Below are positions 8,981-64,000 of a stretch of DNA of 64,000 nucleotides, one piece after another (within the stretch, counting starts at the first letter, position 1; every line of letters begins with the position of its first letter). This DNA comes from a virus. Taxonomy: Duplodnaviria; Heunggongvirae; Uroviricota; Caudoviricetes. Position numbers and translations under genes: made by a program. The notes beneath the pieces are model-generated. The model did not search any database. It worked only from the letters and a program-made list of their open reading frames with translations, and was not told the DNA's origin. The stretch spans positions 1 to 64,000 of the IMG/VR virus record IMGVR_UViG_3300010356_001624, one strand, 5' to 3'.

Positions 8981-8981
8981 A

Positions 8982-13952: not shown

Positions 13953-13981
13953 ATTTTAACTATTTATATAAAATATATAAT

Positions 13982-28265: not shown

Positions 28266-28269
28266 AATT

Positions 28270-49619: not shown

Positions 49620-49743
49620 TTTTAATTAATATTTTTCTATATATATAATACGTTTTTTTTATAAAAATCTTGAAATTTTTATAATTTTATTTTTTTGTAG
49701 TATTTATAAAAAAAATAATGGTTATTTATAAAAATTTATAAAA

Positions 49744-50673: not shown

Positions 50674-50861
50674 CGGAAGATTATAAAAAAATGGTAAATG
50701 AAGAAATTTATGTTCTTACTAAACACGCTAAATTTCAAAGCGAATATATTGAAAATATACCCGTTTATCGAAGAAGATATTTTTTATATCTGTTTGAAAA
50801 AGAAATGGAAGAATTAAAAAAACTACAAGAAAAAGAAATCAAAAAAAGACCAAGATTTTAA
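50634..50861 (+). CDS. -1 frame extension, candidate frameshifted C-terminal (GT/E'-like) part of the chaperone. As a stand-alone ORF it is 56 aa (50691-50861).
   Basis: The -1 frame is open from 50634 across the heptamer T TTT TTC (X XXY YYZ) through 50861. The stop is followed by a hairpin and T-run. Confidence 0.4.
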   Translation, partial: FNNWFRFFFPKHLAEDYKKMVNEEIYVLTKHAKFQSEYIENIPVYRRRYFLYLFEKEMEELKKLQEKEIKKRPRF

Positions 50862-50878
50862 AATTTTGGTCTTTTTTT
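50846..50878 (+). terminator. candidate terminator: agaccaa ... ttggtct stem followed by a T-run
   Basis: aaagaccaagattttaaaattttggtctttttttattt; the stem is imperfect in its middle. Confidence 0.4.
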
Positions 50879-50949
50879 ATTTATAATAATCGTAATTTAA
50901 AATTTTATTAAAATTTACCAATAACTATTTATAGTAAAATATTATCACT

Positions 50950-53538
50950 ATGAGCAAAATGTCACCTGAAGAAGTTAGAAAAACATTTGAAGAATATCAA
51001 AAATTAAATAAAGAACTTCAAAAATCAAGAAAATCTTTAATTAATCTTGGTGATTATGAACGTGCTAGAGCAATTACTGTTGAAATTATTGCAAATAATG
51101 AAAAAATTGTAAATCAATTAAAAAATAATACTAAAGGTTTAACAGACGAACAATTAAAACAATACAATAAATTAATTGATGTTCAAAAAGAATTAAATAA
51201 CGAACTTGATAATGAATATAAAAGAAGAAAACATATTATAAGTTCATTAAAACATAGTTTTGATTTATTAGTAAGTGGTTATAAATATTTACAACAACAG
51301 GATAAAATCATAAAAAATACCATTCTTAATCTAGGAATGAGTGGGAACAAAGCAGAATTAATGCGAGGTTCTTTTGAAAGAAGTGCAATGTTTGTTGCTA
51401 GATTGGGTGGTAATCTTGAAGTTATTCAAACCATGATGACTGGATTTGCCGATGAAACAGGTAGGTCACGTGCATTAACATCAGATATGGTTAAGGATAT
51501 TACTGTTATTGGTAAAGGTACTGGTCTTGGAATTGAACAGGCAACTAAACTTTCAGCACAATTTGAAGCAATTGGTATTAATACAAAAGGTGCTTTAGAT
51601 TATGTTCAGGGTGTTGTTGATACTTCTGAAAGAATGGGTGTTAATACCACAAAAGTATTAAAAAATATTACTGATAATTTTAAAAAACTACAAACCTTCC
51701 ATTTTCAACAGGGTGTTAGAGGTTTTAGAGAAATGGCAGAATATGCTGAAAAATTTAAAGTTGATATTTCCGATGCATTAAATTCTGCTGAAATTGCAAG
51801 AACACTTGAAGGGGCTATTGGTATGGTAGCAAATTTACAGGTAATGGGTGGTGAATTTGCTAAATTGGATATGTTTGAAACACTATATTTTGCACGTAAT
51901 GACCCTGCTAAACTTCAAGCAAAAATTGGGGAAATGACAAAGGGTATTGTTACACTTCGTAAAAATAGTGATGGTACTTTTGAAAAATTTATTAGTCCTG
52001 CTGACCGTGATAGGCTTGCTGCTGCTGGTAAAGCATTGGGTATTACTACGGATAAAATGACAGAAATGGCATTAAGAGCATTTGATATCGGAAAAATGTC
52101 ACAGGAATTATCTGGTATGGGTTTAACAAATGAACAAAAACAACTAATTGAAGGTGCTGCATTTTTTAATCAACAAACTGGTAAATTTCAAGTTCAACTT
52201 GGTGAAGATATGAAAAATATCAGTGAATTAACAATACAACAGGCTAAATCTTTTGCACAAGAACAAAAACTATTAAAAGACCGTGCAAAAGAAGCAATGA
52301 CTTTTGATGAAACATTTAAAGCAACAATAGAAATGTTAAAAGCAGGATTATTACCATTATTAAATAATATAAATAAAGCATTGTTATGGATAAGTAAGTA
52401 TTCAGATAAATTATTTGAAGGAAAGGGTATTGTTATTGCTGCTACCACATTATTTGCTGGTGCTAAATTATTTTTTCTTTCTTCAAAACTTCTTAATAGA
52501 GCATTTGATAATTACATATCATATAATAAATTAAGTTTTAGAAATTTAGCAGCAACTAATTCTGGTGGTCTTTCTAGTCTTTTTAGTAAAAGTGTTGGTA
52601 TTGGTGATTCATTAACACCAACAACAGGAAAAGGAAGTAGTGGTTTAGCAGATATGAGAAGGGGTATTGGTGCTGGTGCTGAAGCAAAGGGTATTGGAAT
52701 GAAAAGACTTGGTACTGGTATTGGTGCTGGTGCTGAAGCAAAGGGTATTGGAATGAAAAGACTTGGTACTGGTGCAGGTATTGGTGCTGCTGCTTTAGGA
52801 ATTGGTGGCGGTGTTGCACTTGCTGCTGTTGGTATTAGTAAACTTGCCGATTCTATGAGCAAATTGGATGAAAAACAATTATCTGTTTTAAAAGGAATTG
52901 CCATGACATTAGCCATTTCGTTTCCTGCTGCTGCTCTTGGTATTGCTATTGCAGGTGCTGCTGGTAAACTTGCTGCTCCAGGATTATATGCACTTAGTGT
53001 TGCTGCTTTAGGAATAGGTGCTGCTGTTGGTATTGCTGCTGTTGGAATAGGAATTATGGCAAAAGGAATTGGTGAAATGATTGAAAAAAGTAAAGGTGCT
53101 GGTGATGCAATGCTTAGTGTTGGACTTGGTGTTAGTGCATTATCATTAGCAATGATGGGTTTTACAGCAGGTGCTTTAGGTTTGGGAGTATTTGCATTAA
53201 CAATGAAAACAATAGCAAAACATGCCGATGCTGTTGAAAAGGTAGGTAATGCTTTTGGTAATATAAAAGCAGTAATGTCTGGAACAAAAGAAGATTTTGA
53301 AGCCGTTGAAAGTGCAGTTAAATTAATTTCAAGTGTGAATACAAATAAAGGTAGTGTATTTGCTGAACTTGCAGCATTATTAAAAACACCTTTAAAAGTA
53401 GAATTTGAAAAAAATACAATACCTATTCAAACTGATGTAACGCTTGAAGTTGATGGTGAAAAATTAATGAATAAATCATTTACGAATAGAATTGCTGTTC
53501 AAAAATCAAATGATGCTAAACTTGGTAAGGTAAATTAA
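50950..53538 (+). CDS. tail tape measure protein
   Basis: 862 aa with a long helical N-terminus, Gly/Ala-rich hydrophobic repeats (GIGAGAEAKGIGMKRLGTG x2, AAVGI...), and a position after the chaperone and before a large tail protein. Confidence 0.78.
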   Translation: MSKMSPEEVRKTFEEYQKLNKELQKSRKSLINLGDYERARAITVEIIANNEKIVNQLKNNTKGLTDEQLKQYNKLIDVQKELNNELDNEYKRRKHIISSLKHSFDLLVSGYKYLQQQDKIIKNTILNLGMSGNKAELMRGSFERSAMFVARLGGNLEVIQTMMTGFADETGRSRALTSDMVKDITVIGKGTGLGIEQATKLSAQFEAIGINTKGALDYVQGVVDTSERMGVNTTKVLKNITDNFKKLQTFHFQQGVRGFREMAEYAEKFKVDISDALNSAEIARTLEGAIGMVANLQVMGGEFAKLDMFETLYFARNDPAKLQAKIGEMTKGIVTLRKNSDGTFEKFISPADRDRLAAAGKALGITTDKMTEMALRAFDIGKMSQELSGMGLTNEQKQLIEGAAFFNQQTGKFQVQLGEDMKNISELTIQQAKSFAQEQKLLKDRAKEAMTFDETFKATIEMLKAGLLPLLNNINKALLWISKYSDKLFEGKGIVIAATTLFAGAKLFFLSSKLLNRAFDNYISYNKLSFRNLAATNSGGLSSLFSKSVGIGDSLTPTTGKGSSGLADMRRGIGAGAEAKGIGMKRLGTGIGAGAEAKGIGMKRLGTGAGIGAAALGIGGGVALAAVGISKLADSMSKLDEKQLSVLKGIAMTLAISFPAAALGIAIAGAAGKLAAPGLYALSVAALGIGAAVGIAAVGIGIMAKGIGEMIEKSKGAGDAMLSVGLGVSALSLAMMGFTAGALGLGVFALTMKTIAKHADAVEKVGNAFGNIKAVMSGTKEDFEAVESAVKLISSVNTNKGSVFAELAALLKTPLKVEFEKNTIPIQTDVTLEVDGEKLMNKSFTNRIAVQKSNDAKLGKVN
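52672..52790 (+). repeat. 57-bp in-frame tandem duplication inside the tape measure gene
   Basis: ggtattggtgctggtgctgaagcaaagggtattggaatgaaaagacttggtactggt occurs twice in tandem. Confidence 0.8.
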
Positions 53539-53994
53539 AAAATAATTTAATAAAAATAAAAACAATAAAAATTTGCAAATGTCAAAAATTTTTTATAACT
53601 TTGCCAAGATTTTTATTTTCAATGTAAAAACAATAAAAAGGTAATATTTATTTATTTCAAATAAAAGTAAATAAAAATTCTATTCAAAATCTTTTTTCGT
53701 TTCTACGAAACAAAATCAAAGTTATAATGTTTATAATTAAATTCTACGAATTTAACAAAAAACTTAGATGAAGGGCATATTATATTCAAAAATTTAAAAT
53801 TTTTTTCATTTAAAAAAATCTTACCATTATAATTCATAATTTAAAAATTAAAAATTATTAACACACCTCAATAAAGGAATTGGTTTAATTCAAAATTAAA
53901 TTTTTCGAAAAAGAATATATTTTCCCAATGTAAAGATAATACATATAAAACAATTTAACAAGTATTTATTAAAAATATATAGGATTATATACCA

Positions 53995-56900
53995 ATGGAT
54001 ATTAATTTACCTGAAAATAGTTCAAATTTAATAAGAAAAGATTATATTATTTATAATGATATAAATTATACTCTTGAAGAATTTCTTAATGTAATTTTAA
54101 ATTTAAATAATTTTGACAATAAAAATAATATCCATTATGGTGATGGTGTTTATACTTTTGATGAATTTATAAATTTTATATTATATAGAAATCTTAAAGA
54201 AAATAGATATAGTTTTGATTTAGATTATAAAGATTATGCTACATCAAGTGCTGGAAATTTATTTAGATTTAATAATGATACTAAATTAGGTAATTTTGGA
54301 AATGCACTTCTTGATGTTATACCTCAATATAATTCATTAAATTTATCAAATACTTTAATTGGTCGTGGAATTGATTTTGGATTATTTGGTAACATAACAC
54401 CATTGGAAAGTATTGGTAGTGTTATGTTAGGTAAACAAATGACATTTAATGCTGTATCACAAGCAGCACGTACTACTGCCGATTATCTACCAAGTATTAA
54501 TATTCAAAATTTATTTACGAATGAACCAATTTTTAGTAAACCTGCTGATTATAGTATTACTAAATTAAATATTACTGGTTTTGATTTTGTTGATAATTTA
54601 TTATCACCATCATTTTATAAATCACAACGTATTGATAGTAATTATGAACATATTATAAACGAAAATGAAATTGTTGATTATACAGGTAAAGGTCAATTAA
54701 ATGAATTGTTTAGACAACTAAATTTTAATTTTTATAAATTTAATTCGTTATATGAATATCGTGTTAAATATAATATAAAAGGACAAAAAGATTTAATTGA
54801 TGAATTGAAAGGAAAAAGATTTGATTTTTTTTATAATCCATATTCAATATTATATGGTTCTGATATGATTAAAACATATTCAGATAAATTACCTGAAACA
54901 TATGCTGGTGCAGAAGAATATGTTTCAGATATTCATGATATATCATTTTTTTATGGTAAAACAACTAATCAAGAGTTAACAGAAATTCCTAAAGATTTTA
55001 TAACTAATTATGATTCTGAAGATGATATTCAAAATAACTTAATTTGGGGTAAGGATGGTGTTGGACAAATTGTACATTTTAATTTAGATAATTCAAGGGA
55101 TAAATATACAAAAGAATTAATTAATAATAATATTGAAAATTTCAAAATTAAAAGAGGTTTACTTGAATATACTAAAAATTTATTAAACGTATCATCTGGT
55201 TTTTATGTTGATATGACCAAAAAAATATATAGAGATTTAAATAAAAGAAGAATATATGGATTTAATGGTTCTCCTGTATGGGAAAAAGAATTAACAAAAT
55301 ATTCATCAAAAAATTTTAAAGGTAGAAAAGAAGGTATTCGTCAGCATAATGCATTGGATAAATATGATAAATTTGTAAAGGCAATTAGGTTTGATGGTAA
55401 TATAGCATATAATAAGAGTGGTAATAATAAAGATTCTGTAATATATAATTCAGTAATGCCAAAAATACATCCAATTAGAGATGATAAAGGAAATGTTGAT
55501 AATAAAAACATGATGTTTAGCATTGAAAATCTTGCTGTTACTGCTGTTAAGGATGAATTAAATAATATTGGTTATATTGATGATGAAGATGGTTCTCAAA
55601 TACCGATAAGTGAGGTAGGACCGTTCAACGGTCGTATTATGTGGTTTCCACCATACGGAATTGAACTTAATGAAACTTCAACAGCAAAATTTGACTCTAC
55701 TGTTATGGTGGGTAGAAATGAACCAATATATACATATATGAATTCAGAAAGAAGTGCAACACTTTCTTTTGTTCTCCTTATTGACCATCCACCTCATTTA
55801 ATTAACTATATGGGTGAAGAAGAATATAAAAAGAAAATTGCTAATTTCTTTGCTTTTGGGGGTGATGATTATTATGAAGATAGTGTTAGTATTAGTGATT
55901 TAACAAAAAGAATTGAAGATATAAAACAAGAAATAGATAATATAAAAAAAGATAATTTAATTAATTCTGGTGAAATAGTTGCTGATGGATTAAATTTAGA
56001 AAATTTACCTTCAATTTATTTTCCAAATGATTATCCAAAAGAAGGTGGGGTTTCAAATGTTATTGATTATATATATAATAATAAATATGAAATAAGTAAT
56101 AAAAATTCTACAATAGAGGGTGATGAAGGTAGTTCAGGATTAAATGACAATATATATGTTTTAAGTGCAGATACATCACAATATAATGCAATTAATGAAA
56201 ATTGTTTATTGAATAAGACATTAAAAGAAGTTTATGTTGATAATAATAATAAAAAGGTTATTGGTATTAAACTTGAAGGTTATGCATCAAGACATGGTGA
56301 TAATATAGATGGTTATAATACAATTTTGGTTGAAAGAAGACTTGAAGCAGCAAAAATTTTTATTTTAAAAAGATTAAATGCATTATTTCCTAATAATGAT
56401 TTTGTTGATGAAGATATTTTTATTGAAATAGTAAATAAAGGTTCTAATTATAGTGATGATGTAGATGATAAAAATATTAATGAAGTAAAAGGTGATAGAA
56501 GGGTTGAATTAAGTTTTGTTCATAATGGAAAAACAATATCTGAAGATGGTACTGTTAGTGACAATCAATATGAATTAGAAATAAAAGAATTAGAAAAAGA
56601 ATTAGAAAATTTATATACAACATTATATAGAGCAAGAAATAGAAAGGATAATATATTTACAGAAAGAACAAAAGAAGATAAAGCGATTTTTGATAATTTT
56701 GAATCAATAAAAACGAATCATTATAAACCCATGTATCATTCTCAAACACCAGAGGATTTTCATAAAAGATTAACGTTTTTACAGCAATGTACTAGACAAG
56801 GTTCTTCAGTTAGAAATAGAAATATAAAAGATAAAGATAATTTAACATCAAAAAATTCAGTTTTTGGTAAGCAACCAATATGTATTTTAAGGGTTGGTGA

Positions 56901-57246
56901 TTTCTTTTATACAAAGGTAATTATTAATAATGTTACTGTTGATTACAACGATACAACATGGGATATGAATCCTGAAGGATTTGGTATGCAACCAATGATT
57001 GCAAAGGTTACATTACAAATGAATGTATTGGGTGGTCAATCACTGTCAGGACCTATCGATGCACTTCAAAATGCTGTATCGTATAACTATTATGCCAATT
57101 CAACTTTTACTAATACAGGGATTTATAAAAAGGCAAGTAGAATTGCAAGGGAACAACAAGCATATTTTAAAGAAATAAAAAAGGATATTATTGATAATAT
57201 GAAAAGTAGATATAACGAATTAAAAACAAATAATAATTTATCATAA
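53995..57246 (+). CDS. large tail/baseplate-associated protein with an internal OmpA-like peptidoglycan-binding domain (about nt 56200-56530)
   Basis: LEGYASRHGDNIDGYNTILVERRLEAAKIFILKRL...KGDRRVELSF matches the OmpA_C signature (GHTD..G...YN..LS.RRA.AV..yL...NRRVEI). The gene lies immediately downstream of the tape measure gene. Confidence 0.6.
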   Translation: MDINLPENSSNLIRKDYIIYNDINYTLEEFLNVILNLNNFDNKNNIHYGDGVYTFDEFINFILYRNLKENRYSFDLDYKDYATSSAGNLFRFNNDTKLGNFGNALLDVIPQYNSLNLSNTLIGRGIDFGLFGNITPLESIGSVMLGKQMTFNAVSQAARTTADYLPSINIQNLFTNEPIFSKPADYSITKLNITGFDFVDNLLSPSFYKSQRIDSNYEHIINENEIVDYTGKGQLNELFRQLNFNFYKFNSLYEYRVKYNIKGQKDLIDELKGKRFDFFYNPYSILYGSDMIKTYSDKLPETYAGAEEYVSDIHDISFFYGKTTNQELTEIPKDFITNYDSEDDIQNNLIWGKDGVGQIVHFNLDNSRDKYTKELINNNIENFKIKRGLLEYTKNLLNVSSGFYVDMTKKIYRDLNKRRIYGFNGSPVWEKELTKYSSKNFKGRKEGIRQHNALDKYDKFVKAIRFDGNIAYNKSGNNKDSVIYNSVMPKIHPIRDDKGNVDNKNMMFSIENLAVTAVKDELNNIGYIDDEDGSQIPISEVGPFNGRIMWFPPYGIELNETSTAKFDSTVMVGRNEPIYTYMNSERSATLSFVLLIDHPPHLINYMGEEEYKKKIANFFAFGGDDYYEDSVSISDLTKRIEDIKQEIDNIKKDNLINSGEIVADGLNLENLPSIYFPNDYPKEGGVSNVIDYIYNNKYEISNKNSTIEGDEGSSGLNDNIYVLSADTSQYNAINENCLLNKTLKEVYVDNNNKKVIGIKLEGYASRHGDNIDGYNTILVERRLEAAKIFILKRLNALFPNNDFVDEDIFIEIVNKGSNYSDDVDDKNINEVKGDRRVELSFVHNGKTISEDGTVSDNQYELEIKELEKELENLYTTLYRARNRKDNIFTERTKEDKAIFDNFESIKTNHYKPMYHSQTPEDFHKRLTFLQQCTRQGSSVRNRNIKDKDNLTSKNSVFGKQPICILRVGDFFYTKVIINNVTVDYNDTTWDMNPEGFGMQPMIAKVTLQMNVLGGQSLSGPIDALQNAVSYNYYANSTFTNTGIYKKASRIAREQQAYFKEIKKDIIDNMKSRYNELKTNNNLS

Positions 57247-57257
57247 ATTTTATTATT

Positions 57258-57578
57258 ATGCCAAAATTAGATTATAATAGATATGCCATATTAAAAAAGC
57301 CTGATGGTTCAATTGAACCCATGCCTTTTGTTGATTTACCTGTTAATACTAGTGATAAGTATATTTTTTGGAGTAGTGGTAGTGATAGGTTAGATAAATT
57401 ATCACAAAAATATTATAATAATCCTTTTTACGATTTTTTAATATTATATGCCAATAATGAATATACAAATGAATTTGATATTCCTGATAATGCATTGATT
57501 AGAATACCATTCCCATTAGAGAGGGCAATTTATGATTATGAATTAATTTTAAAAAATCATATGCAACAATTTATTTGA
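57258..57578 (+). CDS. hypothetical protein
   Basis: ORF only. Confidence 0.4.
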   Translation: MPKLDYNRYAILKKPDGSIEPMPFVDLPVNTSDKYIFWSSGSDRLDKLSQKYYNNPFYDFLILYANNEYTNEFDIPDNALIRIPFPLERAIYDYELILKNHMQQFI

Positions 57579-57627
57579 TAATTTAATTTATTTATATTAA
57601 TATTGCAAAATATTAAATTTTTTATAA

Positions 57628-59742
57628 ATGAAAAATAATATTGTTGTTGTTTTTTCATCCCATTTATCTGAAGAAGAAAATCAGAAATTTATTAAACATA
57701 TTAACAATACCATTGGTAAAGTTAAACATGATGTAATTTGCTATTCAAATTTTAATCAGTATAGTCTTACTGAAATTTATAATAAAGCGATTAAAGAACA
57801 TTATAAAAAGGATTCTATATTTGTTGTTTGTCATAATGATATTATTATAGGTACGAGAGATTGGGGTAAATTATTGCTTTTTAAATTTAATCAAACAAAT
57901 TTTGATATTATTGGTGTTGCAGGTAGTACCTATTTACCTGAATCCTGTGTATGGTGGGAAGATAGAACAAAAATGGTTGGTATTGTTGACCATACGGATG
58001 GATATTCTATTTGGACAAGTGAATATTCTAAAGAAAAAAAGGGTGTGATTACACCAGTTGTTTTGGTTGATGGTCTTTTTATTTCTTTTAATCCCGATAC
58101 GATTGTACATAGATTTGATGAAGAATTTAAAGGGTTTCATCTTTATGATTTATCATTTTGTATTCCAAATTGGCTTGATGGTTGTGATATTGGTGTAACA
58201 ACAGATATTAGAATATTACATAAATCAATTGGTGAAACAAATCAACAATGGGATGAAAATAGAAAACAATTAGCGGAAAAATATTATGATGAATTACCAA
58301 TAACAATATTACCAGAATATAATGATTTAATTGTTAATTTATTAACAGAGCCAAAAGTAACAGTAATTATTCCAACAAAAAATAATTTAAAGTATATTAA
58401 AAATAATATTTATTCTTGGAATAATGTTGTTAATTATGATAATTATGAAATAATTATTGCTGATACGGGTAGTGATGAAAGTGTAATTAAGGAATATGAT
58501 TCATTTCTTTCAAATAAAATTAAATTAATAAAATATAATTATTATAATTTTGCTAAAATAAATAATGATGTAGTAAAAAATCATACATCTAATGATACAG
58601 AATTAATACTATTTTGTAATGATGATATAAAATTATTAAATGATAGTCTTAGTAGATGTATTGAAATTTATAATCAAAATAAAGATACTGTTGGTACTAT
58701 TGGTATTAGATTACATTATGGGGATGGTAGTATTCAACATAATGGGATTTTAATGTATAAAGAAAATAATATTTTAAGACTTACACATAAAGATATTAGA
58801 AAAACTGAAAATTATTTTACTGGTATTAATTACGATTCATTGGGAAATACTGGTGGGTTTATGTTAATTAAAAAAGATTTATTTTTAAAATATGGTGGGT
58901 TTAATGAAAACTATATTGAATGTTTGGAAGATGTTGAATTAAATATTAAATGTAAATACGATGGATTAAAAAATATTACAGTTAGTGATGCTGTTGCAAT
59001 TCATTATGAATCTATAAGTAGAAATAAAATTTTGGGTGGTAATGAAAGATTTATGGTTGATTATAATAGATTGATGAATTTTGTAAACGATTTTGAAAAT
59101 AAAGAAAGAGAAATTAAAAGAAATAAAGAAAATAAAAATCCAATTATTAATATTATAACAAGAACACACGATAGACCTAAACATTTTAAAATATGTAGAG
59201 ATTCAATTTTAAATCAAACATATAAAAATATTAATCATATTGTTGGTAGTGATATTGATTGTGATTATTGTGATGATTATATTAAATTAGAATTACAAGA
59301 AGTTCAACCAAAACCAGATAATTTGGCATCATATCCTGCACCTTGGAATTTACACATAAATGTTTTACATAACTATGTAAAAGAAGGTTGGATTATGTAT
59401 TTAGATGATGATGATATGTTTATTAATGAAAATTCTTTAAGTATAATAGTGAATCATATTGAAAATGAAGATGAATTATTGCTTTGGAGAGTAAACATTA
59501 ATGGAAGAATAGTTCCAGATGATAATGGTTTTGGAAAAATTATTGCAGGGAATATATCTGGTATTGGTTTTATGTTTCATTCGAAATATTTACCAATTGA
59601 TTGGGTGTCTTGGAATTTTGGTGATTATAGGGCTATTAAACAATTAGAAAATAAAAAATTAAAACAGAAATGGATTAACCAAGTGTTAACAAAAACACAA
59701 GGTGTTCCAAATTTAGGAAAAAAACCAAATGATTATGAATAG
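57628..59742 (+). CDS. multidomain glycosyltransferase with three GT-A-like modules
   Basis: The middle module reads VTVIIPTKNN...EIIIADTGSDES...CNDDIKLL...IQHNG, which fits GT2 DxD and acceptor-site motifs. The C-terminal module reads INIITRTHDRP...ILNQTY...YLDDDDMF. The N-terminal module reads VVFSSH...VVCHNDIII...LVDGLF. Confidence 0.7.
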   Translation: MKNNIVVVFSSHLSEEENQKFIKHINNTIGKVKHDVICYSNFNQYSLTEIYNKAIKEHYKKDSIFVVCHNDIIIGTRDWGKLLLFKFNQTNFDIIGVAGSTYLPESCVWWEDRTKMVGIVDHTDGYSIWTSEYSKEKKGVITPVVLVDGLFISFNPDTIVHRFDEEFKGFHLYDLSFCIPNWLDGCDIGVTTDIRILHKSIGETNQQWDENRKQLAEKYYDELPITILPEYNDLIVNLLTEPKVTVIIPTKNNLKYIKNNIYSWNNVVNYDNYEIIIADTGSDESVIKEYDSFLSNKIKLIKYNYYNFAKINNDVVKNHTSNDTELILFCNDDIKLLNDSLSRCIEIYNQNKDTVGTIGIRLHYGDGSIQHNGILMYKENNILRLTHKDIRKTENYFTGINYDSLGNTGGFMLIKKDLFLKYGGFNENYIECLEDVELNIKCKYDGLKNITVSDAVAIHYESISRNKILGGNERFMVDYNRLMNFVNDFENKEREIKRNKENKNPIINIITRTHDRPKHFKICRDSILNQTYKNINHIVGSDIDCDYCDDYIKLELQEVQPKPDNLASYPAPWNLHINVLHNYVKEGWIMYLDDDDMFINENSLSIIVNHIENEDELLLWRVNINGRIVPDDNGFGKIIAGNISGIGFMFHSKYLPIDWVSWNFGDYRAIKQLENKKLKQKWINQVLTKTQGVPNLGKKPNDYE

Positions 59743-60436
59743 TAAAGTAGATATTTACATTGCATCTTTATGGCGACAAGGACATGTTGTAAATACAGTA
59801 AATTCAATATTGCTTAATCCAGAAGCGGAAAAAATTACTATATCATGTAATTTGTATACTGATGAACAATGGGGATATGTTAATAATGAGTTGAGAAATT
59901 CAAAAATTAAATTACATAGAACAAACAATGAAAAATGTAGTAATGAAAAATTAAAATATATAAATAACGGTAATAGCCCATATATTGCGTTAATTGATGA
60001 TGATTTAATTTATCCTTCGGATTATTTAAAAAAATTAATTGATGGTTGTGAAAAATATCAAGGACACGTATCATTACATGGGGTAATATTAAATCCAAGA
60101 CCAATTAGGTCATATTATCATAATAGAATAGTATATAGAGGTTTAGGAAATGTGAATGAAGATGTTAAAGTAGATATTATTGGTAGTGGAACATTATTAT
60201 TTAAACGTGAATGGTATGATGATTTGGATGAATGGTATGATAGGTGTAGTAATGTATCAATGGATGATATTTATGTTAGTTTTTTTGCAAGAAGTAAAAA
60301 CATTCCAAGATATGTTTTAGCACATAAAGAAGGATATTTAAAACATAAAGAAATAAAAAAAGAAGATAATTATGTTTTTGATAAATATGTAAATAATGAT
60401 AAGGTACAAACAGATTTTATAAATATTTATTTTTAA
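59729..60436 (+). CDS. glycosyltransferase-like protein with a DxD motif
   Basis: IALIDDDLIYPSDYLKKLIDG resembles a GT-A DXD segment. Confidence 0.4.
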   Translation: MIMNSKVDIYIASLWRQGHVVNTVNSILLNPEAEKITISCNLYTDEQWGYVNNELRNSKIKLHRTNNEKCSNEKLKYINNGNSPYIALIDDDLIYPSDYLKKLIDGCEKYQGHVSLHGVILNPRPIRSYYHNRIVYRGLGNVNEDVKVDIIGSGTLLFKREWYDDLDEWYDRCSNVSMDDIYVSFFARSKNIPRYVLAHKEGYLKHKEIKKEDNYVFDKYVNNDKVQTDFINIYF

Positions 60437-60446
60437 TATAATTAAC

Positions 60447-61031
60447 ATGCCTTTTGAAAGTAAAAAATATTGGATTGATAGGTATGCAACACATGGTGGT
60501 AATTCTGGTGTTGGTTCTTATGGAATATATGCCGAATATAAAGCAAATATTATAAATAAATTTTTTATTGATTATAATATTGAAACTGTTTTGGAATTGG
60601 GATGTGGTGATGGTAATCAATTATCTTATTTAAAACCAAAAAAATACTATGATTATGATATTAGTGATTTTGTAATTAGTAAAAATAAAAAAAGATTTAA
60701 TGGCTCTAATTATTTTTTTACTACAAATTTAGATGAATTGAAATCAAAAAAATTTGATGTGGTTTTATCTTTGGATGTTATTTACCATTTAATAGAAGAT
60801 AATAATTATTATGAATATATGAAAAATTTATTTTTCTTTTCTAAAAAATATGTAATTATATATTCAACAAATAATAATAATAATTGGTTGTCTGAACATT
60901 GTAAAAATAGAATTTTTATGAATGATATTTCAAATAATTTTAAATTAATTAATAAAATTGATAATCCATTAAAAGGAGAAAATACACAATCTGATTTTTA
61001 TTTTTTTAAAAATGAAAAGAACGAGATATAA
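60447..61031 (+). CDS. class I SAM-dependent methyltransferase
   Basis: VLELGCGDGNQLSYL is motif I (E/DxGxGxG); VVLSLDVIYHL is the motif II/post-I acidic strand. Confidence 0.65.
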   Translation: MPFESKKYWIDRYATHGGNSGVGSYGIYAEYKANIINKFFIDYNIETVLELGCGDGNQLSYLKPKKYYDYDISDFVISKNKKRFNGSNYFFTTNLDELKSKKFDVVLSLDVIYHLIEDNNYYEYMKNLFFFSKKYVIIYSTNNNNNWLSEHCKNRIFMNDISNNFKLINKIDNPLKGENTQSDFYFFKNEKNEI

Positions 61032-61917
61032 CATAAAAAAACAAATAAAGAAAAAGATTAATAATACTATAACTAAGAAAAATATAGTAATAAATAATCT
61101 AAATAAAAAAAATAACATTAATTTAAATTCTGATAAAATATATGAAAATAAAAAATCAGAATCAAAATATAATTTTCCTAATATTGTTGAAAATAAAAAA
61201 ATAGAATCGAAAAACGATATTATTAACATAATTGAAAATAAAATAAAAAACTATGATTTGATTGATAATTTAAATCCAAAAATATTATTTTTAATTTCAA
61301 ATTATGAAAGAGAAGAAATGTTAAAACAATTAATTTCAGAAATTAAAACAATAAATGCGGATTATATTATATTTGATGATGTATCATCATATAAAATTGA
61401 TGACCCGAATGTGATTATTAATGATTATCATAGAGGAAAGGGTGATTATTGGAAAACTTTTGATGATATGTTTAAATATTGCAAGGAAAATTATTATGAT
61501 ATATATGTTTTTACACCTAATGATTTTTTAAATTATAAATTTGATAAAATTATAACATATGGTGTTAATTTAAGAAATTATGAATATATATTTAATATTA
61601 TAAATGATGGTAGAAAATCTTGTTGGGTTGGTATTGAAGAAAAAATTTTAAATAATAAAATAAAATTATCGTTTTTTACTGATTGTGGATTTTTTACTAA
61701 TTATAAAACACTTAGTTTATTAGAATTTAAAATGAATAAAATTAATTTAAAACCCATTCCAAATCGAGGGTCTTTTGTTGGAGAACAACTTACAAGAAGA
61801 TTGGTAAACCTAAAAGTGCCAATATTTACACCTATTAAAAGTTTTGCATATCATGGTGACCATGAATCATTAATGAATCCTGAAGTTAGAAAAATTCATA
61901 AAATAATTTCATTATAA
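61012..61917 (+). CDS. hypothetical protein, possibly GT-A-like, with an Asn/Lys-rich N-terminus
   Basis: ILFLISNYEREEMLKQLISEI...IIFDDVSSY weakly resembles a GT2 N-terminus plus DxD motif. Confidence 0.35.
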   Translation: MKRTRYNIKKQIKKKINNTITKKNIVINNLNKKNNINLNSDKIYENKKSESKYNFPNIVENKKIESKNDIINIIENKIKNYDLIDNLNPKILFLISNYEREEMLKQLISEIKTINADYIIFDDVSSYKIDDPNVIINDYHRGKGDYWKTFDDMFKYCKENYYDIYVFTPNDFLNYKFDKIITYGVNLRNYEYIFNIINDGRKSCWVGIEEKILNNKIKLSFFTDCGFFTNYKTLSLLEFKMNKINLKPIPNRGSFVGEQLTRRLVNLKVPIFTPIKSFAYHGDHESLMNPEVRKIHKIISL

Positions 61918-61922
61918 AAAGA

Positions 61923-62606
61923 ATGAATATGAAAAATAATGTTGTTATAAAAAATTTTAAATATGATAATTTTCAATATTCATTTAAAGGAGTTGAAAAT
62001 GAACATATTTTTAAACAAATACCTTGGTATGAACAAGAATTATTAGAATATATTAGTAATTTAAATTTAAATGGTGTTTATGTTGATGTTGGTGGTAATA
62101 TAGGAAATCATTCATTATTTTTTGCCAATCATTGTAATTCAACAAAATTATATATATTTGAACCAGAAAATTTTTGTTTTAACATTTTAAATGAGAATTT
62201 ATCAAAAAATTCAAAAAAACAATATGTTTTAAGAAATATTGTTTTATGGAACAAAAAAGATGAATTAAATTTAATTAAATATGAAACATATCAAAATACT
62301 GGAATATCGAAAGTAATTGAAAAAAATAAAAACAATGACAATTTATTATTTATAATTTCAAATACATTGGATGATGAAATTTCATTAAATGAAAATGTTG
62401 TGTTGATTAAAATAGATACTGAAGGTGCTGAAAGAAAAATACTTGATGGTGGTATAAATTTAATAAAAAACAAATTACCTGTTATTATTTGTGAAGCAGC
62501 AACAAGTGAAGAATTTAAAGAAATTGATGATTTTTTAAAACCTTTGGGATATAAAACACCCACAAGAAGATTTAATGCAACACCAACATATATTTGGGTT
62601 TGTTAA
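61923..62606 (+). CDS. FkbM-family methyltransferase
   Basis: YVDVGGNIGNHSLFFANH and IKIDTEGAERKILDGG match FkbM methyltransferase motifs. Confidence 0.72.
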   Translation: MNMKNNVVIKNFKYDNFQYSFKGVENEHIFKQIPWYEQELLEYISNLNLNGVYVDVGGNIGNHSLFFANHCNSTKLYIFEPENFCFNILNENLSKNSKKQYVLRNIVLWNKKDELNLIKYETYQNTGISKVIEKNKNNDNLLFIISNTLDDEISLNENVVLIKIDTEGAERKILDGGINLIKNKLPVIICEAATSEEFKEIDDFLKPLGYKTPTRRFNATPTYIWVC

Positions 62607-62636
62607 ACTATATTTATTATGTAAAAAAATAATATT

Positions 62637-63392
62637 ATGGATAAAGTATTAGTTATTGGTGATAGTTGTATTGATGAATTTCAATATGGTGTTTGTGAAA
62701 GAATTAGTCCTGAAGCACCAGTGCCTATTTTTAAGAGTTTGTATGGTGTTCAATCTAGTGGTATGGCAAGTAATGTTAAAAATAATTTAGAAGGTTTAGG
62801 TATTTCGTGTGATATAATTACAAATACTATGGTAAAACCACATAAATTAAGATTTGTTGATAAAAAAACAAATCAAATGTTACTTAGGGTTGATGGTTAT
62901 GATAGGATTGTTGAAAAAGCAGAAGAATATTTAGTTAATATTAATTTTAATGATTATGATGCTATTGTAATTTCAGATTATGATAAAGGTTTTCTTACTG
63001 AAAATACTATAACAAATATAACAAATAAACACAAATTAGTTTTTTTAGATAGCAAAAAAAAGTTTGGAAAATGGGCAGATGGTATAGAATTCATAAAAGT
63101 TAATGAAAATGAGTTTAATAATAATTCAAAGTATTTAATTGATGATTTTAAGGGTGAATTAATTATTACCTTGGGGGATGAAGGTGCTAGACATAATGAT
63201 GTTTTATATCATGTTGAACAACAATATGCTATTATTAATTTAGCGGGTGCTGGTGATACTTTTTTTGCAGGTTTTGTGGCAAATTATTTAGAATTTGGAA
63301 ATATTCCAAAAGCAATTAATTTTGCAAATAAATGTGCTTCTTGGGTTGTTTCCCAAAAAGGTGTTGGTGTTATAAATAAAAGTAATATATGA
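62637..63392 (+). CDS. sugar kinase of the ribokinase/PfkB family, HldE/RfaE domain-I-like (D-glycero-D-manno-heptose-7-phosphate kinase-like)
   Basis: The N-terminus KVLVIGDSCIDEFQYGVCERISPEAPVPIF matches the RfaE domain-I signature (iLVvGDvmlDrYw.G.veRiSPEAPVPVv). NLAGAGDTFFAGF is the PfkB motif. Confidence 0.72.
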   Translation: MDKVLVIGDSCIDEFQYGVCERISPEAPVPIFKSLYGVQSSGMASNVKNNLEGLGISCDIITNTMVKPHKLRFVDKKTNQMLLRVDGYDRIVEKAEEYLVNINFNDYDAIVISDYDKGFLTENTITNITNKHKLVFLDSKKKFGKWADGIEFIKVNENEFNNNSKYLIDDFKGELIITLGDEGARHNDVLYHVEQQYAIINLAGAGDTFFAGFVANYLEFGNIPKAINFANKCASWVVSQKGVGVINKSNI

Positions 63393-63772
63393 TAAAAATT
63401 TTAAACATAAATGATTTGGATTTTGAATCTATTGTTGAGAAAAAATGGGGTCGTGAAATAATACTACATAATGATGAAAATTATTGTGGTAAAATACTTC
63501 AATTTAAATCTGGTTCTAAATTTAGTATGCATTACCATTTAAAAAAAGAAGAAACCTTTTATGTAAATAAAGGAAAATTAATATTAAATTATATTGATAC
63601 TAATGATGCTACTGAATATTCAAGAGAACTTAATATTGGTGATGTTATTCATATTGAACAGGGTGACCCACATCAAATAATAGCATTGGAAGATAGTGAA
63701 ATTATTGAAATATCAACACAACATTTTGATTTTGATAGTTATAGAATAAGAAAGGGTGATAGTCAATCATGA
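63389..63772 (+). CDS. cupin-fold protein (sugar epimerase/isomerase-like)
   Basis: WGRE...GKILQFKSGSKFSMHYHLKKEETFYVNKGKL...GDVIHIEQGDPHQI shows the cupin two-motif pattern (G..S.H.H...E and G.....P...H). Confidence 0.55.
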   Translation: MIKILNINDLDFESIVEKKWGREIILHNDENYCGKILQFKSGSKFSMHYHLKKEETFYVNKGKLILNYIDTNDATEYSRELNIGDVIHIEQGDPHQIIALEDSEIIEISTQHFDFDSYRIRKGDSQS

Positions 63773-64000
63773 TAATTTATGTAGATATTGATAATACAAT
63801 ATGTTATACGAATGGAAATGATTATGTTAATTCAATACCAAATTTTGAAAACATCAAAAAGGTAAATAAACTATATGATGATGGTAATATAATAATATAT
63901 TGGACAGGAAGGGGTATGAAAAGTGGTTTAGATTGGACTAATTTAACAAAAAAACAACTATCTGATTGGGGTTGTAAATATAATGAATTAATAATGAATA
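63769..64000 (+). CDS. HAD-superfamily phosphatase (GmhB-like?), 3'-truncated at the window edge
   Basis: MIIYVDIDNTIC carries HAD motif I (DxDxT). Its ATG overlaps the cupin stop codon (ATGA). Confidence 0.45.
   Translation, partial: MIIYVDIDNTICYTNGNDYVNSIPNFENIKKVNKLYDDGNIIIYWTGRGMKSGLDWTNLTKKQLSDWGCKYNELIMN

What the first reader, a model, noticed from the sequence alone, without database searches (positions are those of the whole stretch)
57628..64000. Phage-borne sugar-modification locus: a tri-module glycosyltransferase, two methyltransferases, a heptose-7-phosphate-type kinase, a cupin and a HAD phosphatase
Seven consecutive same-strand genes downstream of the tail genes encode the following. 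One is a 704-aa protein with three GT-A modules. Two are a class-I SAM methyltransferase and an FkbM methyltransferase. Another is a kinase whose N-terminus (VLVIGDSCIDEFQYGVCERISPEAPVPIF) is the HldE/RfaE domain-I signature. A cupin, of the kind that acts as a C3/C5 epimerase in heptose pathways, is present. The last is a HAD phosphatase with GmhB-like motif I. Together these resemble bacterial capsule/LPS heptose-modification cassettes, not phage genes. The locus could glycosylate virion proteins, hypermodify DNA, or remodel the host surface polysaccharide, for example to exclude superinfecting phages. It runs past the window end, so it is incomplete here.
Basis: partly seen in the sequence, partly recalled or inferred. 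Interest (0 to 1): 0.7.

Follow-up and report, generated by a model that had tools for sequence, protein, structure and literature searches.

The report
Phage ADP-heptose and glycan-building gene island
A distant T4-like phage carries a gene island that should make the activated sugar ADP-heptose and build a methylated sugar chain with it; such islands are already annotated in ocean cyanophages, but this one suggests an undescribed enzyme type for the first step of heptose synthesis.

Summary
The genes are real and the heptose reading holds, but they are ordinary phage genes. Window 57628-64000 has eight co-oriented ORFs, not seven: a 704-aa protein with three GT-A modules, a 235-aa GT2, a class-I methyltransferase, a 301-aa protein modelled as another GT-A fold, an FkbM methyltransferase, an HldE-domain-I-like kinase, a metal-binding cupin and a truncated minimal HAD phosphatase. 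Identical contigs show two more genes past the window end: an HldE-domain-II-like nucleotidyltransferase and an epimerase that passes the curated ADP-glyceromanno-heptose 6-epimerase cut-off. No GmhA isomerase is present.

The kinase-cupin-HAD-nucleotidyltransferase set recurs in T4-like cyanophages and many viral contigs. The cupin is fused to the HAD in giant-virus-like contigs and to the kinase in CPR bacteria. I therefore propose it replaces GmhA (inferred, not assayed), not a C3/C5 epimerase.

The island lies between baseplate genes and a conserved 213-aa gene, follows a motif typical of structural-gene upstream regions, and has no membrane, flippase or polymerase genes. Related phages hold different sugar genes in the same slot. 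Strain variants carry disrupted methyltransferases.

The glycan's target is unknown. I favour virion proteins over host envelope or DNA. New member of a known kind; moderate interest.

The parts
57589..57596 (+). Late-promoter-like motif TATTTATA (TTATTTATAT), 39 nt upstream of the first gene of the island
   Evidence: The same sense-oriented [G/C]TATTTATA[A/T] lies 18-51 nt upstream of 18 of 56 listed gene starts. These include the terminase, portal, prohead protease, T4_baseplate and 862-aa tail genes. It is absent before the ThyA, dUTPase and helicase genes. A role as a promoter is inferred, not shown.
57628..59742 (+). 704-aa glycosyltransferase with three GT-A modules
   Evidence: Glyco_tranf_2_5 at 8-219 (3.9e-25). 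Glycos_transf_2 at 245-421 (1.4e-13). PglI/GalT1-like at 505-613, with a DDDD motif at 593. No hydrophobic segment.
59729..60436 (+). 235-aa GT2-family glycosyltransferase
   Evidence: Glycos_transf_2 at 7.8e-7, 29.6 bits against a cut-off of 23.3.
60447..61031 (+). 194-aa class-I SAM methyltransferase
   Evidence: Methyltransf_12/23/11/31/25 score above their cut-offs. The best NCBIfam match is the pseudaminic-acid-associated methylase (1e-9, below its cut-off). An IS605-family insertion interrupts this gene in strain variant L008.
61012..61917 (+). 301-aa protein: basic or disordered N-terminus plus a GT-A-fold domain that no profile library recognises
   Evidence: No Pfam, NCBIfam or PHROG hit. 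The AlphaFold model has pLDDT 82. All top Foldseek PDB hits are GT-A glycosyltransferases, led by KfiA at 6e-5, then B4GALNT1, COLGALT1 and POMGNT1. Homologues are fused to GT25 or GT2 domains. Invariant D122, D123 and D171.
61923..62606 (+). 227-aa FkbM-family methyltransferase
   Evidence: TIGR01444 at 92.7 bits against a cut-off of 37.7. Methyltransf_21 at 5.6e-14. Weak RfbT hit. Carries a deletion in variant L005 and is truncated by an IS in L007.
62637..63392 (+). 251-aa PfkB kinase, short HldE-domain-I type (proposed D-glycero-beta-D-manno-heptose-7-phosphate 1-kinase)
   Evidence: Best NCBIfam match is rfaE_dom_I at 3.5e-35 (121.7 bits, below the 345 cut-off). PDB 4e84 at 2.5e-10, with the ISPEAPVP N-terminal motif aligned. 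PHROG 8133 at 3e-70. 35-44% identity to cyanomyovirus 'carbohydrate kinase'.
63389..63772 (+). 127-aa metal-binding monocupin, proposed non-SIS sedoheptulose-7-phosphate isomerase
   Evidence: Cupin_1/Cupin_2, PHROG 7851 at 1.5e-38. Invariant H48, H50, E55 and H95. Fused to the HAD in giant-virus-like contigs and to the kinase in CPR bacteria. It occupies the only unfilled step in operons that hold kinase, GmhB, nucleotidyltransferase and HldD.
63769..64000 (+). First 77 codons of a 96-aa minimal HAD phosphatase (proposed heptose-1,7-bisphosphate 7-phosphatase). The island continues past the window end.
   Evidence: The full gene is at L003 11133-11423. PDB 9iqw 'capsule biosynthesis protein' at 8e-14. 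TIGR01689 EcbF-BcbF at 3e-7. PHROG 1238 at 2e-20. HAD motif residues D6, D8, T10, T46 and D88 are invariant across the alignment, and the motif III lysine is kept in every phage and giant-virus member. Next come a 141-aa nucleotidyltransferase (rfaE_dom_II, 1.5e-31) at L003 11420-11845 and a 304-aa ADP-glyceromanno-heptose 6-epimerase (TIGR02197, 313 bits against a cut-off of 274.6) at L003 11842-12756.

Best explanation
The island is a self-contained, soluble glycan-building module of a distant T4-like phage.

Its 3' half should convert sedoheptulose-7-phosphate into ADP-L-glycero-beta-D-manno-heptose in five steps:
1. The cupin isomerises sedoheptulose-7-phosphate to D-glycero-D-manno-heptose-7-phosphate. 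This step is inferred. It would be a non-orthologous replacement of GmhA.
2. The short HldE-I-type kinase phosphorylates C1.
3. The minimal HAD phosphatase removes the 7-phosphate. It would be a functional analogue of GmhB.
4. The HldE-II-type nucleotidyltransferase makes ADP-D,D-heptose.
5. The HldD orthologue epimerises C6.

Its 5' half holds five GT-A modules in three proteins and two SAM methyltransferases. These should assemble a short, O-methylated, heptose-containing oligosaccharide.

The acceptor is not shown. I favour virion structural proteins, glycosylated late in infection. The island sits inside the structural gene block behind a late-type motif. It has none of the machinery needed to export a polysaccharide. 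Its heptose core is shared with giant viruses of eukaryotes, which have no LPS to modify.
For: Enzyme assignments:
- HldD passes the curated equivalog cut-off (313.4 against 274.6).
- The kinase and the nucleotidyltransferase have the two HldE domains as their best families. The kinase's best solved relative is a heptose-7-phosphate kinase.
- HAD catalytic motif residues are conserved.

Cupin in the heptose pathway:
- HAD-cupin fusion proteins lie next to a bifunctional PfkB+cytidylyltransferase gene in giant-virus-like contigs.
- A kinase-cupin fusion, a nucleotidyltransferase-GmhB fusion and HldD lie together in a Levyibacteriota contig.
- A Saccharibacteria contig has the operon cupin, kinase, canonical GmhB, nucleotidyltransferase, HldD.
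- No SIS GmhA lies within 8 kb of the cupin in any of 54 cellular loci. Only 1 of 80 viral loci has one.
- 36 of those 80 viral loci carry kinase, cupin, HAD and nucleotidyltransferase together.
- All 31 cyanophage or marine-virus records that hold the kinase also hold the cupin. None of them appears among the 13 phage records that match E. coli GmhA.

Timing and target:
- A TATTTATA motif is shared with structural genes.
- Gaps to the upstream baseplate genes are 12 and 49 nt.
- No hydrophobic segment occurs in any island protein.
- Related phages carry different sugar and glycosyltransferase sets in the same slot.
- Methyltransferase genes are disrupted in 3 of 6 otherwise 97-99.9% identical strain variants.
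Against: - No enzyme was assayed.
- The kinase and the nucleotidyltransferase score below the curated equivalog cut-offs, so substrate identity rests on context and on HldD.
- The cupin fold search does not discriminate. Top hits mix oxalate decarboxylase and quercetinase with D-lyxose isomerase, small archaeal phosphomannose isomerases and CapF.
- About two thirds of cellular cupin loci lack nearby heptose genes, so the family may have another or broader activity.
- The host could supply GmhA.
- From my own knowledge, the known ADP-heptose transferases are GT9 or TibC-type GT-B enzymes, not GT-A. None of the five GT-A modules can be tied to heptose.
- The virion target rests on gene position, a putative promoter motif and an analogy. 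Only part of the 220-240 kb genome was examined.
Confidence: 0.55

Rival explanations
1. Host-surface remodelling. The island makes ADP-heptose and uses the glycosyltransferases and methyltransferases to alter host LPS core, O-antigen or capsule intermediates in the cytoplasm. This would block superinfection or prevent progeny from re-adsorbing to lysing cells. It is the usual reading of the cyanophage and pelagimyophage clusters.
For: - Published comparative analyses read the homologous clusters this way (PMC7824862 section 3.4.10; PMC7029224).
- ADP-L,D-heptose is the LPS inner-core donor (my own knowledge), and HldD is an orthologue.
- GT2 enzymes often act on undecaprenyl-linked intermediates (my own knowledge).
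- Island content varies between related phages in the way O-antigen loci do.
Against: - The island has no initiating phosphoglycosyl transferase, flippase, polymerase, ABC exporter or any membrane protein.
- It carries the motif of the structural-gene class and abuts baseplate genes, whereas exclusion functions are usually early (my own knowledge).
- The same heptose core occurs in giant-virus-like contigs whose hosts have no LPS.
- From my own knowledge, marine picocyanobacterial LPS is reported to lack heptose.
Confidence: 0.25
2. DNA hypermodification. ADP-heptose made by the island is transferred to a hydroxymethylated base in phage DNA, as shown for a metagenomic phage cluster that puts mono- and di-heptose on 5hmC.
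For: - Pyle et al. (bioRxiv 10.1101/2023.12.21.572611) reconstituted heptosylated 5hmC from a HAD/APH enzyme, a cytidylyltransferase and a GT-B enzyme. They also report GT-A enzymes in such clusters.
- The window encodes a Mom-like DNA-modification domain (18125-19582) and an N6/N4 DNA methyltransferase nearby.
Against: - No C5-cytosine methyltransferase, TET/5mYOX dioxygenase or hydroxymethylase homologue was seen in the sequence held.
- The only thymidylate-synthase homologue scores as canonical ThyA (TIGR03284, 260.7 bits against a cut-off of 108) and sits next to a dUTPase.
- The island lies among late structural genes, not replication genes.
- Five glycosyltransferase modules plus two methyltransferases are more than the mono- to trisaccharide DNA systems described.
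Confidence: 0.07
3. The cupin is not the isomerase. Sedoheptulose-7-phosphate isomerisation is done by a host or distally encoded GmhA. The cupin does something else: it acts as a phosphomannose or lyxose-type isomerase on another sugar, epimerises or tailors the heptose, or is a non-catalytic partner.
For: - The fold and sequence are those of a generic metal cupin. The nearest structures include non-sugar enzymes.
- 36 of 54 cellular loci have the cupin without heptose genes. Examples are a Terriglobia locus next to UDP-GlcNAc 2-epimerase and a Planctomycetota locus with unrelated neighbours.
- One viral locus (L147) has both the cupin and a GmhA-like ORF.
- Source annotations call homologues mannose-6-phosphate isomerase-like.
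Against: - The cupin stays with kinase, HAD and nucleotidyltransferase even where no epimerase or other tailoring enzyme is present (20 of 80 viral loci).
- It is fused to pathway enzymes in two unrelated lineages.
- From my own knowledge, eukaryotic hosts of giant viruses make no heptose and so have no GmhA to lend.
- No phage record that holds the kinase matches E. coli GmhA.
- The GmhA reaction is the seven-carbon analogue of the phosphomannose isomerase reaction that small cupins catalyse (my own knowledge).
Confidence: 0.3
4. The locus is a host-derived island, a chimeric assembly, or a recent transfer with no role in the phage.
For: - The closest cellular relatives of the cassette are in CPR bacteria.
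- NCBI and JGI bins label related contigs 'archaeon' or 'Dojkabacteria'.
Against: - The same arrangement occurs at 97-99.9% identity in at least six independent assemblies from different sources, flanked on both sides by phage genes.
- GC matches the rest of the phage.
- Genes overlap or abut with no gaps.
- The slot is occupied by sugar islands in related phages with only 57-66% protein identity.
Confidence: 0.02

Closest known systems
Cyanomyovirus 'LPS/heptose' gene set T4-GC 304-308 (e.g. P-SSM2 PSSM2_309-313, S-SM2 SSM2_200-211); PHROGs 8133, 7851, 1238
   Same: The same five protein families: short PfkB kinase (35-44% identity), cupin (44-51%), minimal HAD (42-54%), small cytidylyltransferase-fold enzyme (36-40%) and an SDR epimerase. 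They occur in T4-like phages near tail or tail-fibre genes and are accompanied by glycosyltransferases.
   Different: - Here the cassette is contiguous and in a different gene order.
- The epimerase is a clear HldD orthologue, whereas the cyanophage ones are only 28-31% identical to it.
- The glycosyltransferase and methyltransferase partners are unrelated.
- The phage is a very distant, 24%-GC lineage: its major capsid protein is about 31% identical to its best matches in the phage collection.
- Database records mislabel the HAD as 'phosphoheptose isomerase' and the cupin as 'cysteine dioxygenase' or 'nucleotidyltransferase'.
Bacterial ADP-L-glycero-beta-D-manno-heptose pathway (GmhA, HldE or HldA+HldC, GmhB, HldD)
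   Same: The kinase, the adenylyltransferase-type enzyme and the epimerase are homologous. The overall chemical logic of five steps from sedoheptulose-7-phosphate is the same.
   Different: - There is no SIS isomerase. A cupin stands in its place (inferred).
- The phosphatase is a 96-aa capless HAD of the EcbF/BcbF type, not HAD-IIIA GmhB.
- The kinase is about 65 residues shorter than the rfaE_dom_I model.
- No GT9 heptosyltransferase is present.
Autonomous virion glycosylation of giant viruses (chlorovirus multi-domain glycosyltransferases, mimivirus fibril sugar clusters; review PMC4691112, listed but not read)
   Same: Virus-encoded nucleotide-sugar synthesis plus multi-module soluble glycosyltransferases and methyltransferases. 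Giant-virus-like contigs carry a HAD-cupin fusion 53-64% identical to the phage proteins, next to FkbM and class-I methyltransferases and glycosyltransferases.
   Different: The glycosyltransferase and methyltransferase proteins of this phage show no detectable sequence similarity to those of the giant-virus-like loci. Heptose has not, to my knowledge, been reported in giant-virus glycans. The comparison with chlorovirus and mimivirus enzymes rests on my own knowledge.
Mycobacteriophage virion glycosylation (Freeman et al. 2023, Cell Host Microbe 31:1216; cited)
   Same: Phage-encoded glycosyltransferases placed beside structural genes and proposed to decorate virion proteins.
   Different: Those phages use host nucleotide sugars and two to four enzymes, in siphoviruses of Actinobacteria. 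Here a complete sugar-activation pathway is phage-encoded. No experimental evidence of virion glycans exists for this phage.
Phage DNA heptosylation cluster ('contig 53', Pyle et al., bioRxiv 10.1101/2023.12.21.572611)
   Same: Phage-encoded HAD-type enzyme plus cytidylyltransferase-fold enzyme plus a glycosyltransferase, producing a heptose conjugate.
   Different: That system uses a HAD/APH bifunctional enzyme and a GT-B DNA glycosyltransferase, and depends on 5hmC. None of these features was found here.

Membership tests
ADP-L-glycero-beta-D-manno-heptose biosynthesis pathway | SIS-domain sedoheptulose-7-phosphate isomerase (GmhA) | tested here: not met
   phmmer and tblastn with E. coli GmhA found nothing in the window, L003, L068 or L069, about 95 kb of this phage. 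A cupin is proposed to do this step.
ADP-L-glycero-beta-D-manno-heptose biosynthesis pathway | D-glycero-beta-D-manno-heptose-7-phosphate kinase (HldE domain I / HldA) | tested here: inconclusive
   rfaE_dom_I is the best family (3.5e-35), but 121.7 bits is below the 345 cut-off. The ISPEAPVP N-terminal motif and the GAGD motif are present. The best PDB hit is heptose-7-phosphate kinase 4e84. Activity was not assayed.
ADP-L-glycero-beta-D-manno-heptose biosynthesis pathway | HAD-IIIA heptose-1,7-bisphosphate phosphatase (GmhB) | tested here: not met
   TIGR01662 gives 13.7 bits against a cut-off of 44.6. phmmer with E. coli GmhB finds no hit. The protein belongs to the minimal EcbF/BcbF-type HAD family. 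Canonical GmhB takes the same place in CPR operons, which suggests functional equivalence.
ADP-L-glycero-beta-D-manno-heptose biosynthesis pathway | Heptose-1-phosphate adenylyltransferase (HldE domain II / HldC) | tested here: inconclusive
   rfaE_dom_II is the best family (1.5e-31, 109 bits, cut-off 181.5). An H-x-G-H motif, GCFDILHSGH, is present. Nucleotide specificity was not tested.
ADP-L-glycero-beta-D-manno-heptose biosynthesis pathway | ADP-glyceromanno-heptose 6-epimerase (HldD) | tested here: met
   TIGR02197 equivalog at 313.4 bits against a cut-off of 274.6, aligned over the full length. This gene lies just past the window end, at L003 11842-12756.
Cyanomyovirus T4-GC 304-308 cassette / PHROGs 8133, 7851, 1238 | Co-occurring short PfkB kinase, small cupin, minimal HAD and small cytidylyltransferase-fold protein in a T4-like phage | tested here: met
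   PHROG 8133 at 3e-70, 7851 at 1.5e-38, 1238 at 2e-20. All five proteins hit P-SSM2 and S-SM2 loci. T4-type core genes are present in the window.
   Pfam and NCBIfam scans at E up to 0.1 returned only generic cupin, WbuC and sugar-isomerase models. H48, H50, E55 and H95 are invariant, which fits a metal site. The only SDR in the locus scores as HldD. That RmlC-type enzymes are metal-independent is from my own knowledge.
Wzx/Wzy- or ABC-transporter-dependent O-antigen or capsule locus | Initiating phosphoglycosyl transferase plus flippase and polymerase, or an ABC exporter (membrane proteins) | tested here: not met
   No such Pfam or NCBIfam hits. The highest 19-residue hydropathy in any island protein is 1.32, so none is predicted to span a membrane.
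Phage DNA sugar-hypermodification clusters (Pyle et al.) | Glycosyltransferase adjacent to a C5-methyltransferase plus 5mYOX/TET, or to a hydroxymethylating thymidylate-synthase homologue | tested here: not met
   None lies within the island or the 64-kb window. The thymidylate-synthase homologue at 26695-27765 scores as canonical ThyA and has a dUTPase neighbour. The rest of the genome was not examined.
Phage virion-glycosylation systems | Glycans covalently attached to capsid or tail proteins | not testable with these tools
   Only positional and promoter-motif evidence is available. This needs glycoprotein staining or mass spectrometry of virions.

The most novel reading that the evidence does not exclude
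This phage lineage coats its own virions with a methylated, heptose-containing glycan made entirely by virus-encoded enzymes starting from sedoheptulose-7-phosphate. The first step would use a previously unrecognised cupin-type isomerase that phages, giant viruses and CPR bacteria share in place of GmhA. The glycan island would then be a hypervariable, IS-mutable 'serotype' locus of the virus particle itself.
Probability: 0.25. Interest if true: 0.7.

Novelty: new member of a known kind. Interest (0 to 1): 0.45.

Why it matters
- Virus-encoded sugar islands are widespread in large phages, but no function has been shown for them. This example is unusually complete and compact, which makes it a good test case.
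- A cupin that does the GmhA step would be a new enzyme class for the first committed step of heptose synthesis. It would correct systematic mis-annotations, such as 'cysteine dioxygenase' and 'phosphoheptose isomerase' on the wrong genes. It would also explain how viruses of heptose-free hosts can make ADP-heptose.
- A virion target would extend self-glycosylation from giant viruses and mycobacteriophages to T4-like phages.
- The variable island could then serve as a marker of particle surface diversity in metagenomes.

Tried and rejected
- Megablast of 50000-64000 against 50,697 phage records found nothing. Only protein-level searches were informative.
- Foldseek of the confident cupin model (pLDDT 92.9) against the PDB gave generic metal cupins of many functions. 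The fold cannot assign the reaction.
- The sigma-70 promoter scan was no better than shuffles: 146 sites against 154 expected. The terminator-like hits are inside genes.
- The T4 late motif TATAAATA is not enriched overall: 43 matches against 37 expected. Only its reverse orientation, TATTTATA, upstream of structural genes stands out.
- A text search for PDB code 9IQW, the closest solved HAD, found no relevant paper.
- Searches for papers linking a cupin with phosphoheptose or sedoheptulose-7-phosphate isomerase returned none. The searched library is incomplete.
- tblastn of the glycosyltransferase and methyltransferase proteins against the giant-virus-like and cyanophage loci gave no hits. 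Only the heptose core is shared.
- The 213-aa protein after HldD has no family hit and only unnamed homologues. I treat it as a conserved phage gene that marks the island border, not as part of the island.
- The idea that the thymidylate-synthase homologue is a hydroxymethylase was rejected on its ThyA equivalog score.
- The window holds no tRNA genes, and the host could not be identified.

Full report
**1. What is in the sequence.**
From 57628 to the window end there are eight co-oriented, abutting or overlapping ORFs.
- 57628-59742 (704 aa) has three GT-A modules. Residues 8-219 match Glyco_tranf_2_5 (3.9e-25). Residues 245-421 match Glycos_transf_2 (1.4e-13). Residues 505-613 resemble the N-terminus of PglI and GalT1, with a DDDD motif at 593.
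- 59729-60436 (235 aa) is a GT2 enzyme, above the Pfam cut-off.
- 60447-61031 (194 aa) is a class-I SAM methyltransferase.
- 61012-61917 (301 aa) hits no profile library.
- 61923-62606 (227 aa) is an FkbM methyltransferase (92.7 bits against a cut-off of 37.7).
- 62637-63392 (251 aa) is a PfkB kinase. Its best family is HldE domain I (3.5e-35).
- 63389-63772 (127 aa) is a cupin.
- 63769-64000 starts a HAD phosphatase.

**2. The 301-aa protein.**
It has 41 homologues, some fused to GT25 or GT2 domains. An AlphaFold model (pLDDT 82; residues 34-64 are disordered) matches only GT-A glycosyltransferases at the top of a PDB search, led by KfiA at 6e-5, then B4GALNT1, COLGALT1, POMGNT1 and heparosan synthase. 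D122, D123 and D171 are invariant. I count it as a fifth GT-A module. This rests on fold, not on a curated family.

**3. What lies beyond the window.**
The kinase protein occurs with identical sequence on at least 23 contigs of up to 220 kb. All six loci examined continue with four genes:
- the 96-aa HAD;
- a 141-aa cytidylyltransferase-fold protein whose best family is HldE domain II (1.5e-31, below the cut-off);
- a 304-aa SDR that passes the curated equivalog cut-off for ADP-glyceromanno-heptose 6-epimerase (313.4 against 274.6);
- a 213-aa protein of unknown function.

The prediction of a GmhA-like isomerase is not. E. coli GmhA finds nothing in about 95 kb of this phage.

**4. It is a phage locus, and a known kind of one.**
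- The window encodes Terminase_6N, Portal_T4, Peptidase_S77, Gp23, a sheath protein and T4_baseplate.
- The major capsid protein is only about 31% identical to its best matches in the phage collection, Flavobacterium phage 'immuto' and an uncultured huge phage.
- GC is 22.8% in the island and 24.2% elsewhere.
- The kinase, cupin and HAD match phage families PHROG 8133, 7851 and 1238 over their full length.
- Homologues of 35-54% identity sit together in cyanomyoviruses including S-SM2, P-SSM2, S-CAM1, S-CAM3, P-TIM68, S-SSM7 and S-T4, as gene clusters T4-GC 304-308.
- Iyer et al. (PMC7824862) already described cyanophage clusters of SDR epimerases, cupin 'sugar isomerases', PfkB kinases, HIGH nucleotidyltransferases and glycosyltransferases. 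They proposed surface-polysaccharide diversification.
- Zaragoza-Solas et al. (PMC7029224) describe glycosyltransferases and rfaE in the 'host recognition cluster' of pelagimyophages.

The statement 'not phage genes' is therefore wrong, and the kind is known at the level of annotation.

**5. The pathway.**
Four of the five steps from sedoheptulose-7-phosphate to ADP-L-glycero-beta-D-manno-heptose have a candidate enzyme by homology.
- Kinase and adenylyltransferase-type enzyme: family-level matches.
- 6-epimerase: equivalog-level match.
- Phosphatase: a capless HAD. Motif residues D6, D8, T10, T46 and D88 are invariant across the alignment, and the motif III lysine is kept in every phage and giant-virus member. 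It is not GmhB. HAD-IIIA scores 13.7 bits against a cut-off of 44.6, E. coli GmhB gives no hit, and the closest solved relative is 9iqw, a 'capsule biosynthesis protein' (8e-14).

The only step without an enzyme is the isomerase, and the only enzyme without a step is the cupin.

**6. Evidence that the cupin belongs to this pathway.**
- The family is highly conserved. Across the 32 aligned homologues, H48, H50, E55 and H95 are invariant, which fits a metal site, and so is a C-terminal DSYR motif.
- Many homologues of 221-223 aa are HAD-cupin fusions. They lie beside a 455-aa bifunctional PfkB+cytidylyltransferase gene on contigs that also encode a eukaryote-type Rpb2 or ankyrin proteins. I read these contigs as giant viruses. 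Two genes there carry four domains.
- In a Levyibacteriota contig, a kinase-cupin fusion (rfaE_dom_I at 314.6 bits plus a C-terminal cupin) is followed by a nucleotidyltransferase-GmhB fusion and by HldD (401 bits).
- In a Saccharibacteria contig the operon is cupin, kinase, canonical GmhB, nucleotidyltransferase, HldD.
- No SIS isomerase lies within 8 kb of the cupin in any of 54 cellular loci. Only 1 of the 80 best viral loci has one, while 36 of those 80 carry kinase, cupin, HAD and nucleotidyltransferase together.
- In the phage collection, all 31 cyanophage or marine-virus records that hold the kinase also hold the cupin. E. coli GmhA matches only 13 records, none of them in that set.

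From my own knowledge, the GmhA reaction is the seven-carbon analogue of the fructose-6-phosphate to mannose-6-phosphate reaction, which small metal cupins catalyse. Such enzymes appear among the structural neighbours (7zvy, 7zvm, D-lyxose isomerase 7nzp), but so do unrelated cupins, so the fold does not decide.

I found no paper that links a cupin with phosphoheptose isomerase.

Caveat: about two thirds of the cellular cupin loci have no heptose genes nearby.

**7. Context, variability and timing.**
- The island begins 49 nt after a small gene with weak baseplate-wedge similarity. It ends at a 213-aa gene that is conserved at 58-66% identity in over 500 protein clusters.
- Three related phages carry, in the same slot, different islands of more than 10 kb. 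Their contents include GT11, GT25, GT1 and GT2 enzymes, FkbM, TylF-type and C-methyltransferases, a DegT aminotransferase, several SDRs, UDP-GlcNAc 2-epimerase and GH16. A PfkB kinase is always near the 3' end.
- Among six versions of this phage that are 97-99.9% identical, three carry lesions in methyltransferase genes. One has an IS605-family element (Y1 transposase plus TnpB) inside the class-I methyltransferase. One has a replaced segment plus an IS that truncates FkbM. One has a roughly 82-nt deletion in FkbM. The heptose genes are identical at the protein level in all six.
- A sense-oriented [G/C]TATTTATA[A/T] lies 18-51 nt upstream of 18 of 56 listed gene starts, including the terminase, portal, protease, baseplate and 862-aa tail genes. 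It is not found before the ThyA, dUTPase or helicase genes. The island's first gene has TTATTTATAT at -39. I read this as a late-promoter-like element. That is an inference.
- No island protein has a hydrophobic segment, and there is no flippase, polymerase, exporter or initiating transferase.

**8. What the glycan is attached to.**
This is not shown by any result here.
- I favour virion proteins. The reasons are the position and the late-type motif, the lack of export machinery, and the fact that the shared heptose core also sits in giant-virus-like contigs, whose hosts have no LPS. From my own knowledge, giant viruses are known to glycosylate their own particles.
- Host-envelope remodelling, the literature's default reading, remains a serious rival.
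- DNA heptosylation is now a documented phage chemistry. However, the window lacks any 5hmC or 5hmU route, and its thymidylate synthase is canonical.
- A further weakness is that the known ADP-heptose transferases are GT-B enzymes (my own knowledge). None of the five GT-A modules can yet be tied to heptose.

**9. Verdict.**
The finding is real and the heptose interpretation is largely right. It is a new, distant member of a known class of phage sugar islands, not something alien to phages. Three things go beyond current annotation: the case for a cupin-type sedoheptulose-7-phosphate isomerase shared by phages, giant viruses and CPR bacteria; the fixed-slot, hypervariable and IS-mutated nature of the island in this phage clade; and a new GT-A family. 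All three are inferences from sequence and context.

Noticed in passing
window 18125-19582 (+): A single 485-aa ORF directly after the Gp23 capsid gene joins a Mom-like DNA-modification domain (PHROG 1384, 1e-25, residues 21-261) to a GIY-YIG group-I-intron-type homing endonuclease (TIGR01453, 6e-23, residues 253-480). It may be a true fusion or an endonuclease inserted in frame.
   Followed up: partly
window 20158-23328 (-): A 1056-aa UvrD-type helicase carries intein signatures (Hom_end_hint, Intein_splicing).
   Followed up: no
window 26695-27765 (-) and 27792-28361 (-): The thymidylate synthase is 355 aa. It passes the ThyA equivalog cut-off but has an insertion of roughly 35-40 residues, about residues 200-238, that splits the match. 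It sits next to a dUTPase.
   Followed up: partly
L008 about 6184-7932 (insertion at window 60568/60569); L007 about 8018-9712: IS200/IS605-family elements (Y1 transposase plus TnpB/Cas12f-like OrfB) are inserted inside the phage's methyltransferase genes in two natural variants. This is a mobile element active within a lytic-type T4-like phage genome.
   Followed up: partly
window, upstream of 18 of 56 listed genes (e.g. 3083-3090, 5167-5174, 13961-13968, 49723-49730, 50926-50933, 57589-57596): A sense-oriented motif [G/C]TATTTATA[A/T] lies 18-51 nt before start codons, including those of the terminase, portal, protease and baseplate genes. It is the reverse orientation of the T4 late promoter TATAAATA.
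   Followed up: partly
window 46641-47462 (-): A further GT2-like gene of 272 aa lies inside the opposite-strand block next to the baseplate genes. The matches are weak: TIGR04440 at 3e-4 and a 'weak' precomputed Glycos_transf_2 hit.
   Followed up: no
window 50950-53538 (+), repeat near 52660-52720: The 862-aa Gly/Ala-rich protein, probably the tape measure, holds a tandem duplicated unit (GIGAGAEAKGIGMKRLGTG). Its length differs between strain variants: 844, 854 and 859 aa are called in other assemblies.
   Followed up: no
L064 8001-8666, L066 3147-3815 (giant-virus-like contigs); L058 7044-8339, L060 626-1951, L061 586-1731 (CPR bacteria): Domain fusions of the cupin occur with the HAD phosphatase in the viral contigs and with the heptose kinase in CPR bacteria. 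In L058 the next gene fuses the nucleotidyltransferase with canonical GmhB.
   Followed up: yes
L003 12750-13391 (just past the window end): A 213-aa protein with no family assignment has over 500 homologous clusters at 58-66% identity, all unnamed. It always lies directly downstream of the variable sugar island in this phage clade.
   Followed up: partly
database labels of P0121 and P0180: Contigs of this phage clade are filed in public bins as 'archaeon' (240-kb contig) and 'Candidatus Dojkabacteria'. The closest cellular relatives of the kinase are also in CPR bacteria. This could be mis-binning by low GC or a hint about the host. The host remains unknown.
   Followed up: no
public records of P-SSM2, S-SM2, S-CAM1, S-CAM3 and others: Annotation errors are systematic. 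The minimal HAD is named 'phosphoheptose isomerase'. The cupin is named 'cysteine dioxygenase', 'putative nucleotidyltransferase' or 'glucose-1-phosphate adenylyltransferase related protein'.
   Followed up: yes
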